A stretch of DNA of 64,000 nt from the sequence record PQ511150.1; one strand, written 5' to 3'. Made by a program: the position numbers and the translations under genes. This stretch comes from Escherichia phage NHEP29. Numbering within the stretch: position 1 is the first letter of the stretch; every line of letters starts with the position of its first letter. This document shows positions 28,828-29,928 of the stretch, piece after piece. The notes under the pieces are model-generated. The model was not told the DNA's origin. It was given only the letters and a program-made list of their open reading frames with translations, and searched no databases.

Positions 28828-29928
28828 TTACGCTGTGAAGATTTTATCCCACATCGCAACAACTGCATCTCGATTATACTTCTTCCATACTGCTTCAGCA
28901 CGTTTAACTCGAGCTTCGTATGTGTCAGTGAATTCTAATACAGCTTTTGTGTAAAGCGCAACTACTTCTTTCTTAGGAGTAGAGGAATCAATTTCTACAC
29001 GCACAGTATCTGGGTCGTATTCGAATGTCGCATGAGGATAATCCTTAAAAACTAACTGGATTACAGGGACACCTTTAGAGATGGCTTCAATAGAACTATT
29101 CTCTACCGTACCTGTGTCAGGACACGTATTAATAAGTGCTTTAGCTGTTTTAAGACGTTCCATGATTTCACCGTGTGGAGCATCAATAATAACAGGATAT
29201 TTAGCTGGTGGTGCCCATTTACTAGGACAGTATCCTACACCATTTTCGCCTAGTGCTTTAATCGCTTCAAGAGCAACATCAGTGCGACGCATCTTAGTGT
29301 CATAACGTTGAGCACTAATAATCAAATCAGTCGCCGGAAGAACTTCAGGTTTCTCATTCAAACAAATAACCGGATAATCTTCGGCTTCAAACAACGGATT
29401 TGCTCGCCAATAATCATAATCAATTTTGTCAGTCAGACCTGAAGTCATATAACAATATTTGCGTTCAAATTCACGGAAGGCTTTAGTAGGAGCATAACTC
29501 TTACCACCATTCTTATGAATTTGAATAGTCTGGTCCCAAATTTGAACAATGCCGCGAGATACCGGTTCAAATGGTGTTGCCATAAAATTCTTATGAACTT
29601 TAGAGAGGCCTGCGTCTTTAATTGCCTGAACGGTTAGTTTAGTCGGTTCCATAGTAACAACAAAATCATATTCATGGATGCCGGCTAGTTCAACAATCTT
29701 ACGAGCCATAGTATAACTCATACCTAGACTGAATTTAGTCAGATGACCAACAGGATGATGATTAACCTTCCAATCACCAAACGTGTCATTATCAAAGCCG
29801 ATATAATCAATATCAGCACCGATGGACACAAGATATTTCAACACATTTAAATGTACTGCTTCAAGGCCACCTTGTACACGATCAGGATTAAATGGGACTG
29901 CACGAGATGGGATAAACATAACTTTCAT
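28828..29928 (-). CDS. GT-B fold glycosyltransferase (candidate DNA hmC sugar transferase)
   Basis: 366-aa ORF; C-terminal GT4-like motif TGTVENSSIEAISKGVPVI (E-x7-E with G-x-PVI); occupies the T4 gene 60/mobA position. Confidence 0.8.
   Translation of the reverse strand: MKVMFIPSRAVPFNPDRVQGGLEAVHLNVLKYLVSIGADIDYIGFDNDTFGDWKVNHHPVGHLTKFSLGMSYTMARKIVELAGIHEYDFVVTMEPTKLTVQAIKDAGLSKVHKNFMATPFEPVSRGIVQIWDQTIQIHKNGGKSYAPTKAFREFERKYCYMTSGLTDKIDYDYWRANPLFEAEDYPVICLNEKPEVLPATDLIISAQRYDTKMRRTDVALEAIKALGENGVGYCPSKWAPPAKYPVIIDAPHGEIMERLKTAKALINTCPDTGTVENSSIEAISKGVPVIQLVFKDYPHATFEYDPDTVRVEIDSSTPKKEVVALYTKAVLEFTDTYEARVKRAEAVWKKYNRDAVVAMWDKIFTA

What the first reader, a model, noticed from the sequence alone, without database searches (positions are those of the whole stretch)
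28828..29928. GT-B glycosyltransferase at the rIIA.1-39 junction, where T4 has gene 60 and mobA
A 366-aa ORF with a C-terminal GT4-like donor-binding motif (TGTVENSSIEAISKGVPVI) lies between rIIA.1 and gene 39. It is remote from the sugar cassette at 50-57 kb but is the clearest candidate for the enzyme that transfers the sugar to hmC in DNA. It does not read like T4 alpha- or beta-glucosyltransferase as I recall them.
Basis: partly seen in the sequence, partly recalled or inferred. Interest (0 to 1): 0.75.

Follow-up and report, generated by a model that had tools for sequence, protein, structure and literature searches.

The report
Known phage DNA arabinosyltransferase (RB69 gp3)
This gene is a real sugar-transferring enzyme of an RB69-like phage, but it is already described and crystallised, and it most likely adds the second arabinose to already-arabinosylated 5-hydroxycytosine in phage DNA rather than putting a sugar on hydroxymethylcytosine.

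Summary

First, RB69 DNA, and by near-identity this phage's, carries arabinosylated 5-hydroxycytosine, not hmC. The window's thymidylate-synthase homologue is 99% identical to the experimentally shown RB69 5hodCMP synthase. Second, a different 299-aa transferase inside the sugar cassette (50714..51613) is the better candidate for the base-proximal sugar. It occurs alone in mono-arabinosylated phages. The gp3 family occurs only in di-arabinosylated phages (one copy) and tri-arabinosylated phages (two copies).

Verdict: already known, and ordinary for this genus.

The parts
28828..29928 (-). gp3-type DNA arabinosyltransferase. It is the orthologue of RB69 ORF003c/gp3, Bas46_0103 and the HY126 glycosyltransferase. 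The fold is GT-B and the donor is UDP-linked. Proposed role: second (beta-1,3) arabinofuranosyl transfer.
   Evidence: ORF confirmed. Matches phrog_8302 at 1e-222. 98.6% identical to PDB 9iqz/9ir0. 99.2% identical to RB69 ORF003c (H44). AF2 model pLDDT 91.8, TM 0.96-0.97 to the crystals. 43% and 41% identical to DLP3 gp77 and gp76.
29955..29972 (-). Stem-loop of 7 base pairs with a UUCG loop, overlapping the stop codon of gene 39, 26 nt upstream of the ORF's ATG. No promoter-like site lies in the 42-nt spacer, so the ORF is probably co-transcribed with gene 39. This is an inference.
   Evidence: Terminator-like scan and direct reading of the sequence.
50714..51613 (-). GT1, a 299-aa protein orthologous to RB69 gp46:47, DLP3 gp79 and Thanatos TH1_063. 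It is the proposed first, base-proximal (alpha) arabinosyltransferase.
   Evidence: 46% identical to DLP3 gp79. Found in 348 phage records, including mono-arabinosylated Thanatos and Serratia phages. Assignment in PMC13326640.
51613..52329 (-). 5-hydroxy-dCMP synthase, a thymidylate-synthase homologue with the D169N signature.
   Evidence: Pfam Thymidylat_synt at 2e-15. 99% identical to RB69 gp48. Reads MRSQN where T4 gp42 reads MRSND. Signature defined in PMC13326640.
50164..50712 (-). Putative nucleotide kinase, orthologue of RB69 gp45, the last gene of the cassette before uvsX.
   Evidence: ORF list. Synteny with RB69 ORF045c and with the DLP1/DLP3 'thymidylate kinase' genes. No Pfam hit.
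52608..53768 (-). U32-peptidase-like protein of the cassette (RB69 gp50). Its role is unresolved.
   Evidence: Pfam Peptidase_U32 at 9.5e-11. 79% identical to Thanatos TH1_065.
53823..54224 (-). HAD-like phosphatase (RB69 gp51, analogous to AfhF). Published role: Araf-1,5-bisphosphate to Araf-1-phosphate.
   Evidence: Position and synteny. Function taken from PMC13326640, which cites He et al. 2026.
54209..55894 (-). Bifunctional sugar-1-phosphate nucleotidyltransferase and kinase (RB69 gp52:53, analogous to AfhE). It makes UDP-arabinofuranose.
   Evidence: Pfam NTP_transferase at 8.5e-10, plus weak kinase-family hits in the C-terminal half. Function from PMC13326640.
56076..56711 (-). SIS-domain arabinose-5-phosphate isomerase (RB69 gp55).
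   Evidence: Pfam SIS at 1e-10. Assignment in PMC13326640, Table 1.
28535..28735 (-). rIIA.1, the flanking landmark downstream of the ORF.
   Evidence: Pfam T4_RIIA1 at 2.1e-30.
29971..31788 (-). Fused gene 60+39, the topoisomerase II large subunit, the flanking landmark upstream of the ORF.
   Evidence: phrog_543 at 1.7e-287, plus Pfam DNA_gyraseB, HATPase_c and Toprim.

Best explanation
The ORF encodes the Mosigvirus gp3-type DNA arabinosyltransferase, a soluble GT-B enzyme that binds a UDP-sugar in its C-terminal Rossmann domain.

The phage first replaces dC with 5-hydroxy-dC. This uses the ThyA-like 5hodCMP synthase at 51613..52329. The phage also makes UDP-D-arabinofuranose from ribulose-5-P/arabinose-5-P using the cassette at 53.8-56.7 kb. 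The cassette-encoded GT1 (50714..51613) puts the first alpha-arabinofuranose on the 5-hydroxyl of the base. The gp3 enzyme then transfers a second arabinofuranose from UDP-Araf to O3 of that first sugar on DNA. The product is beta-D-Araf-(1->3)-alpha-D-Araf-5-hydroxy-dC. This bulky decoration shields the DNA from restriction enzymes and DNA-targeting CRISPR-Cas.

Shown by my tools or by deposited or published data:
- the gene, its fold and UDP binding (crystal title)
- the chemistry of RB69 DNA
- the 5hodCMP synthase activity
- the in vitro arabinosyl transfer to arabinosylated DNA by the 41-43% identical DLP3 paralogue pair

Inferred:
- that gp3 performs specifically the second step
- that it acts on DNA rather than on nucleotides
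- its stereochemical mechanism
For: Identity. The protein is 98.6% identical over all 366 residues to PDB 9iqz/9ir0, 'phage HY126 glycosyltransferase' and the same 'with UDP'. It is 99.2% identical to RB69 ORF003c and syntenic with Bas46 bas46_0103, 'putative hmC-arabinosyltransferase'.

Conserved donor-site residues. G20 (with G21 nearly invariant), R208, R214 and E281 are invariant down to 19% identity.

Gene count tracks sugar count.
- Mono-arabinosylated phages carry GT1 only. These are Thanatos and the Serratia/Prodigiosinella phages such as LC53.
- Di-arabinosylated phages carry GT1 plus one gp3. These are RB69, Bas46/47 and NicPhage.
- Tri-arabinosylated DLP3 carries GT1 plus two gp3 paralogues.

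Cassette linkage. In Acinetobacter phages the gp3 paralogues sit inside the arabinosylation cassette.

Biochemistry of homologues. DLP3 gp76 and gp77 together add a third arabinose to RB69 DNA from UDP-Araf in vitro (PMC13326640). They are 41% and 43% identical to this ORF.

Published assignment. RB69 gp3 is listed as beta-arabinosyltransferase 2.

Selection. dN/dS is 0.05-0.06.
Against: No paper I could read shows a biochemical or genetic test of gp3 itself. He et al. 2026 (Nat Chem Biol) and Mahler et al. 2025 (Cell Host Microbe) probably contain one, but they are not held in the library.

Orthology does not say which step gp3 performs. The two Acinetobacter paralogues are 58% identical to each other and roughly equidistant from this ORF at 43% and 41%. 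That pattern indicates a lineage-specific duplication.

The DLP3 enzymes were inactive individually, and GT1 (gp79) showed no activity on 5hoC DNA in vitro. The order of action therefore rests on comparative genomics.

All of the closest structural neighbours are retaining enzymes, whereas the proposed product is a beta linkage and the first sugar is alpha. With a single donor, one of the two enzymes must invert. Which one does is unresolved.

The first Glu of the GT4 EX7E motif is absent; the position is T272/G273.
Confidence: 0.8

Rival explanations
1. gp3 is the primary transferase. It puts the first arabinose directly on the modified cytosine in DNA, as proposed in 2018 and by the first reader. 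The 299-aa cassette protein then does something else, or adds the second sugar.
Against: Phages whose DNA carries one pentose have no gp3 homologue at E<=1e-3, yet they have GT1 next to the 5hodCMP synthase. These are Thanatos and the Serratia phages, the group that includes LC53. The gp3 family is confined to lineages with two or three sugars, and its copy number rises with sugar number. The DLP3 gp76 and gp77 homologues act on DNA that is already arabinosylated.
Confidence: 0.08
2. gp3 is a glycosyltransferase unrelated to DNA modification, for example one acting on a host envelope glycan, a lipid or a phage protein. It merely happens to be carried in a variable slot of the genome.
For: Its best structural neighbours are lipid, LPS and small-molecule glycosyltransferases such as PimA, WaaG/WaaB and BshA. 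In Mosigvirus the gene lies 21 kb from the sugar cassette, in a slot that holds unrelated ORFs in JS98 and nothing in T4.
Against: In phage genomes the family occurs only in lineages that also carry GT1. In Acinetobacter phages the homologues are embedded in the cassette between the kinase and gene 40/41. Those homologues modify DNA in vitro. The family is almost absent outside these phages, with 12 representatives among 1.84 billion proteins.
Confidence: 0.04
3. gp3 acts before DNA synthesis, on the nucleotide or nucleotide-sugar level (for example on arabinosyl-5hodCMP or -5hodCTP), rather than on polymerised DNA.
For: [quoted passage not shown] A dedicated nucleotide kinase sits in the cassette.
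Against: The 41-43% identical DLP3 enzymes add arabinose to purified virion DNA. T-even glucosylation is post-replicative (established knowledge of T4 AGT and BGT). A polymerase would have to accept a disaccharide-bearing dNTP.
Confidence: 0.08

Closest known systems
RB69 ORF003c / gp3 (NP_861693), Bas46 bas46_0103, and phage HY126 glycosyltransferase (PDB 9IQZ apo, 9IR0 with UDP)
   Same: This is the same protein. Identity is 98.6-99.7% over the full 366 residues, at the same position between rIIA.1 and 60+39. The AF2 model superposes on the crystals at 1.4-1.7 A.
   Different: Only a handful of substitutions. The window protein differs from the HY126 chain at 5 positions: N56T, Y160H, G163A, G252S and S316F. 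Nothing is functionally distinguishing.
Acinetobacter phage DLP3 gp77 and gp76 (beta-arabinosyltransferases 2/3)
   Same: Same family, full-length homology at 43% and 41% identity, E 2e-109 and 6e-99. The same donor-site residues are conserved. They are shown in vitro to transfer Araf from UDP-Araf to arabinosylated DNA.
   Different: They are two tandem paralogues, 58% identical to each other, located inside the cassette. Here there is a single copy 21 kb away. Together they make a tri-arabinosyl product that RB69-type DNA lacks.
T2/T6 beta-glucosyl-HMC alpha-glucosyltransferase, the second-sugar transferase that makes gentiobiosyl-hmC
   Same: Functional analogy from established T-even biology. 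It is a phage enzyme whose acceptor is a sugar already attached to a modified cytosine in DNA, not the base itself.
   Different: The sugar, linkage and base differ (glucose and hmC). Sequence or structural relatedness was not tested here.
T4 alpha-glucosyltransferase (AGT, CAZy GT72)
   Different: There is no detectable sequence similarity by BLASTP or hhalign. It ranks only 36th among structural neighbours. It transfers glucose directly to hmC.
T4 beta-glucosyltransferase (BGT, CAZy GT63)
   Same: GT-B fold and DNA substrate (established knowledge).
Cellular GT4-type retaining GT-B enzymes (PimA 2gej, BshA 6n1x/3mbo, WaaG, sucrose-phosphate synthase 6kih, BH4 glucosyltransferase)
   Different: Sequence identity is 10-15%. 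The protein itself fails the Pfam and NCBIfam GT models. The first Glu of EX7E is missing. The acceptor is a glycosylated DNA base. The proposed product linkage is beta, whereas these enzymes retain configuration.

Membership tests
gp3-type phage DNA arabinosyltransferase family (PHROG 8302; RB69 gp3 / DLP3 gp76-77) | Full-length sequence homology to characterised or deposited members | tested here: met
   phrog_8302 at 1e-222 over residues 1-366. 98.6% identical to PDB 9iqz. 99.2% identical to RB69 ORF003c. 43% and 41% identical to DLP3 gp77 and gp76.
gp3-type phage DNA arabinosyltransferase family (PHROG 8302; RB69 gp3 / DLP3 gp76-77) | The same genome carries a 5hodCMP synthase, the UDP-Araf biosynthesis genes and GT1 | tested here: met
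   All are present at 50164..56711 in the window. In the phage collection, gp3 occurs in the Mosigvirus-type and Acinetobacter lineages plus one Tegunavirus record, and GT1 is found in all of these lineages.
gp3-type phage DNA arabinosyltransferase family (PHROG 8302; RB69 gp3 / DLP3 gp76-77) | Transfers arabinofuranose from UDP-Araf to arabinosylated 5hoC in DNA | not testable with these tools
   The only available evidence is indirect. The crystal title says 'with UDP', and the DLP3 homologues are active in vitro.
GT-B fold glycosyltransferases | Two Rossmann-like beta/alpha/beta domains with an inter-domain cleft, and a C-terminal helix crossing back | tested here: met
CAZy GT4 / Pfam Glycos_transf_1 and Glyco_transf_4 | Significant match to the family sequence models | tested here: not met
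   No Pfam family at E<=1 and no NCBIfam family for this protein. Only distant profile-linked relatives match Glyco_transf_4 (1.6e-7), Glycos_transf_1 (2.3e-5) and GT4-conflict.
CAZy GT4 / Pfam Glycos_transf_1 and Glyco_transf_4 | EX7E motif in the C-terminal domain | tested here: not met
   The second Glu is present and invariant (E281). The position of the first Glu is T272/G273 in sub-threshold alignments to WaaG and BH4 glucosyltransferase.
CAZy GT4 / Pfam Glycos_transf_1 and Glyco_transf_4 | N-terminal Gly-rich loop and basic residues that bind the donor diphosphate | tested here: inconclusive
   G20 (with G21 nearly invariant), R208 and R214 are invariant across the family. Thomas 2018 aligned Gly-20 and Arg-207 with T4 AGT Gly-15 and Arg-204.
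CAZy GT4 / Pfam Glycos_transf_1 and Glyco_transf_4 | Retaining stereochemistry | not testable with these tools
   The proposed product is a beta linkage and the first sugar is alpha. The anomeric configuration of the donor is not given in the papers I could read.
T4 alpha-glucosyltransferase family (GT72) | Sequence homology to T4 AGT | tested here: not met
T4 beta-glucosyltransferase family (GT63) | Sequence or close structural homology to T4 BGT | tested here: not met

The most novel reading that the evidence does not exclude
The two DNA arabinosyltransferases of this phage presumably use one donor, UDP-D-Araf, yet they make linkages of opposite anomeric configuration: alpha on the base, then beta-1,3 on the first sugar. 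One of them must therefore invert.

The kinase/uridylyltransferase that makes the donor resembles AmgK/MurU. If it yields the alpha-anomer as those enzymes do, then gp3 would be an inverting enzyme built on a scaffold whose nearest 35 structural neighbours are all retaining GT4/GT5/GT20 enzymes. The missing first Glu of EX7E fits that idea. This would be an unusual mechanistic switch within the GT4-like clade.

The HY126 structure paper probably already addresses this, but I could not read it.
Probability: 0.3. Interest if true: 0.4.

Novelty: already known. Interest (0 to 1): 0.15.

Why it matters
This gene is part of the pathway that gives RB69-like phages their poly-arabinosylated 5-hydroxycytosine DNA. 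That DNA resists many restriction enzymes and DNA-targeting CRISPR-Cas systems (PMC13326640; PMC13216743, citing Mahler 2025). [quoted passage not shown]

Knowing which transferase adds which sugar matters for three reasons:
- predicting a phage's modification state from its genome, where GT1 only, GT1 plus one gp3, and GT1 plus two gp3 correspond to mono-, di- and tri-arabinosylation
- choosing therapeutic phages
- using these enzymes as tools to glycosylate DNA

None of this is new for this window. The gene was predicted in 2018, crystallised by 2025 and placed in the pathway in 2026.

Tried and rejected
Direct family scans. Pfam, NCBIfam and PDB-sequence searches gave no glycosyltransferase family hit for the protein itself. 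Only a family profile touches GT4 chains, and only below threshold.

T4 enzymes. BLASTP and hhalign against T4 AGT and BGT found nothing.

GT1 versus gp3. BLASTP between the window's own GT1 and gp3 found nothing, so they are not recent paralogues.

First structure model. The first AF2 run, with a 5-sequence alignment, gave a poor N-terminal domain (pLDDT 65). It was replaced by a 12-sequence alignment that gave pLDDT 91.8.

Thanatos TH1_065. I suspected this 378-aa protein, which follows the kinase where Acinetobacter phages have their gp3 genes, might be a divergent gp3. It is instead the U32-like protein, 79% identical to window 52608..53768, and hhalign to the gp3 profile gives probability 0.2%.

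JS98 junction. I looked for a gp3 remnant at the rIIA.1/39 junction of JS98, which has GT1 only. It holds unrelated 107-aa and 53-aa ORFs, and tblastn found no hit.

Key papers. I tried to read He et al. 2026 (10.1038/s41589-026-02150-z) and Mahler et al. 2025 (10.1016/j.chom.2025.06.005). Neither is held, and a search for '9IQZ' returned only an irrelevant paper.

Tegunavirus record. I tried to locate the single Tegunavirus record that carries a gp3 homologue. It did not appear among the listed rows.

Composition. No compositional anomaly marks the gene. GC is 0.38-0.39, like its surroundings.

Full report
**Observation.** The ORF exists exactly as described: 28828..29928 on the minus strand, 366 aa, ATG start. 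The quoted motif TGTVENSSIEAISKGVPVI is at residues 272-290. An AAGG ribosome-binding site lies 6 nt before the start codon. Downstream is rIIA.1 (28535..28735; Pfam T4_RIIA1, 2e-30) followed by rIIA. Upstream is a 605-aa fused 60+39 topoisomerase II large subunit at 29971..31788. A 7-bp UUCG-loop hairpin overlaps the stop codon of gene 39, and the 42-nt spacer holds no promoter-like site. Co-transcription with gene 39 is therefore likely, though this is an inference. The frame is not a chance ORF. It is conserved at 95-99.7% amino-acid identity in about 155 phage genomes. dN/dS among three orthologues is 0.05-0.06.

**Position relative to T4.** The T4 map reads rIIA, rIIA.1, a 54-bp gap, 60, 60.1, mobA, 39. 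The ORF therefore occupies what is an empty gap in T4. The 60.1 and mobA genes are an insertion inside the topoisomerase gene, which is unsplit here. In JS98 the same junction holds unrelated 107-aa and 53-aa ORFs. The site is a variable slot.

**What the window is.** The 2-kb region around the ORF is 98-98.7% identical to many Mosigvirus genomes, including RB69 (AY303349, positions 2092-4092). The ORF corresponds to RB69ORF003c (H44, 99.2%). In Bas46 (MZ501056) the syntenic gene bas46_0103 is annotated 'putative hmC-arabinosyltransferase'.

**What the protein is.** It has no Pfam or NCBIfam hit and falls in PHROG 8302, 'unknown function'. However, the PDB holds a 98.6% identical chain: 9IQZ 'phage HY126 glycosyltransferase' and 9IR0 'phage HY126 glycosyltransferase with UDP', both released 2025-07-16.

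**How large the family is.** The family is tiny. It has 5 clusters among 5.8 billion proteins by word search. It has 12 representatives among 1.84 billion by profile HMM. The most distant members themselves match Pfam Glyco_transf_4 and Glycos_transf_1, which links the family to the GT4 superfamily transitively.

**Conserved residues.** G20, R208, R214 and E281 are invariant across the family, and G21 is nearly invariant. E281 aligns with the second Glu of the GT4 EX7E motif. The position of the first Glu is T272/G273.

**The acceptor base is not hmC.** Lee et al. (NAR 2026, PMC13326640) showed by MS/MS and NMR that RB69 DNA carries alpha-D-Araf and beta-D-Araf-(1->3)-alpha-D-Araf. The sugars are linked by an ether directly to C5 of 5-hydroxycytosine. 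The base is made as 5hodCMP by the ThyA homologue gp48, and an Asn at the ThyA-D169 position is diagnostic. The window's ThyA homologue (51613..52329) is 99% identical to RB69 gp48. It reads MRSQN where T4 gp42 reads MRSND. An independent study of the Mosigvirus NicPhage reaches the same chemistry. It states that the earlier arabinosyl-hmC assignment for RB69 was erroneous (PMC13390438).

**There are two transferases.** The sugar cassette in the window, all on the minus strand, contains:
- a nucleotide kinase (50164..50712)
- a 299-aa protein, GT1 (50714..51613)
- the 5hodCMP synthase (51613..52329)
- a U32-like protein (52608..53768)
- a HAD phosphatase (53823..54224)
- a bifunctional nucleotidyltransferase/kinase (54209..55894)
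- a SIS isomerase (56076..56711)

These assignments rest. GT1 is the orthologue of RB69 gp46:47 and is 46% identical to DLP3 gp79. It has no detectable sequence similarity to the ORF under study.

**Which enzyme adds which sugar.** Lee et al. propose GT1 as the first, base-proximal transferase and gp3 as 'beta-arabinosyltransferase 2'. NicPhage's authors likewise describe two sequential arabinosyltransferases, one in the cluster and one between rIIA and the topoisomerase gene. My comparative data support this order. GT1 homologues occur in 348 phage records. These span Escherichia, Klebsiella, Serratia, Enterobacter, Proteus, Yersinia, Acinetobacter and Shewanella phages. The gp3 family occurs in 211 records. 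These are about 155 Mosigvirus-type phages, 55 Acinetobacter phages with two copies each, and one Tegunavirus. Gene content tracks sugar count:

| Modification state | Phages | Transferase genes |
|---|---|---|
| One sugar | Thanatos; Prodigiosinella/Serratia LC53 | GT1 only |
| Two sugars | RB69, Bas46/47, NicPhage | GT1 plus one gp3 |
| Three sugars | DLP3 | GT1 plus two gp3 paralogues |

For LC53 I did not inspect the genome itself. The entry rests on the Serratia-phage records.

**Evidence from the Acinetobacter phages.** In these phages the gp3 paralogues sit inside the cassette, directly after the kinase. That ties the family functionally to arabinosylation. Purified DLP3 gp76 and gp77 together add a third arabinose to RB69 virion DNA from UDP-Araf. 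They are 41% and 43% identical to the window ORF.

**Limits.**
- The two Acinetobacter paralogues are 58% identical to each other and about equally distant from the Mosigvirus protein. They arose by lineage-specific duplication, so orthology alone cannot say which step gp3 performs.
- The DLP3 enzymes were inactive singly, and DLP3 gp79 was inactive on 5hoC DNA.
- I could not read He et al. 2026, the HY126 paper that is the probable source of the crystal structures, or Mahler et al. 2025, the Aat paper. These most likely contain direct biochemistry or genetics for this very protein.
- A secondary source says that deleting 'the arabinosyltransferase Aat' in Bas46 sensitised the phage to a defence system (PMC13216743). 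It does not say which aat gene was deleted.

**An open mechanistic point.** The first linkage is alpha and the second is beta. With one donor, one of the two GT-B enzymes must retain and the other must invert. Lee et al. report GT4-type retaining enzymes as the top structural matches for both gp3 and GT1. I modelled only gp3. gp3 lacks the first Glu of EX7E.

**Verdict.** It is wrong on the acceptor, which is most probably the first arabinose on 5-hydroxycytosine rather than hmC. It also overlooks the better base-proximal candidate inside the cassette. The gene is already known. It was predicted in 2018, is annotated in GenBank, has crystal structures released in 2025, and was placed in a pathway in 2026. 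Interest is low.

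Noticed in passing
window 52608..53768 (-): The U32-peptidase-like cassette protein (RB69 gp50) is 79% identical to Shewanella phage Thanatos TH1_065, whereas GT1 is only 47.5% identical between the same two phages. It has a weak NCBIfam hit to UbiU (E 0.0011) and a C-terminal Cys cluster, CANEICGxxCxYCERYY. Its role in the pathway is not established in the papers I read; one lists it as 'sugar or heterocycle reductase'. Such strong conservation suggests an essential and tightly constrained step.
   Followed up: partly
window 50714..51613 (-) and 54209..55894 (-): GT1 (299 aa) and the bifunctional nucleotidyltransferase/kinase (561 aa) are single intact ORFs here. The RB69 GenBank record splits each into two (ORF046c/047c and ORF052c/053c). 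This is consistent with the published statement that the RB69 splits are sequencing errors.
   Followed up: partly
window 29955..29972 (-) and 31838..31853 (both strands): Two G+C-rich hairpins with UUCG tetraloops flank gene 39. One overlaps its stop codon, immediately upstream of the transferase gene. The other lies just upstream of gene 39. They may be RNA-stability or attenuation elements. This was not examined further.
   Followed up: no
window 28736..29970, compared with L003 (T4) 2404..2457 and L007 (JS98) 2437..3024: The rIIA.1/topoisomerase junction is a variable cargo slot in T4-like phages. It is an empty 54-bp gap in T4, holds unrelated 107-aa and 53-aa unannotated ORFs in JS98, and holds the arabinosyltransferase in Mosigvirus.
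   Followed up: partly
L001 7001..9296 and L009 3324..5619 (Acinetobacter phages DLP1 and DLP3): The two tandem gp3-family genes are 58% identical to each other but only 41-43% identical to the Mosigvirus protein. The duplication is therefore specific to the Acinetobacter-phage lineage. Both were needed together for activity in vitro, which hints at a hetero-oligomer.
   Followed up: partly
phage collection: One Tegunavirus record carries a gp3-family homologue at under 60% identity, while the Tegunavirus Yersinia phage TG1 appears in the GT1 results. I could not locate the record or its genomic context.
   Followed up: no
window 8000..18000: GC skew is positive only in this block and negative elsewhere. 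This indicates a block of plus-strand genes in an otherwise minus-strand window.
   Followed up: no
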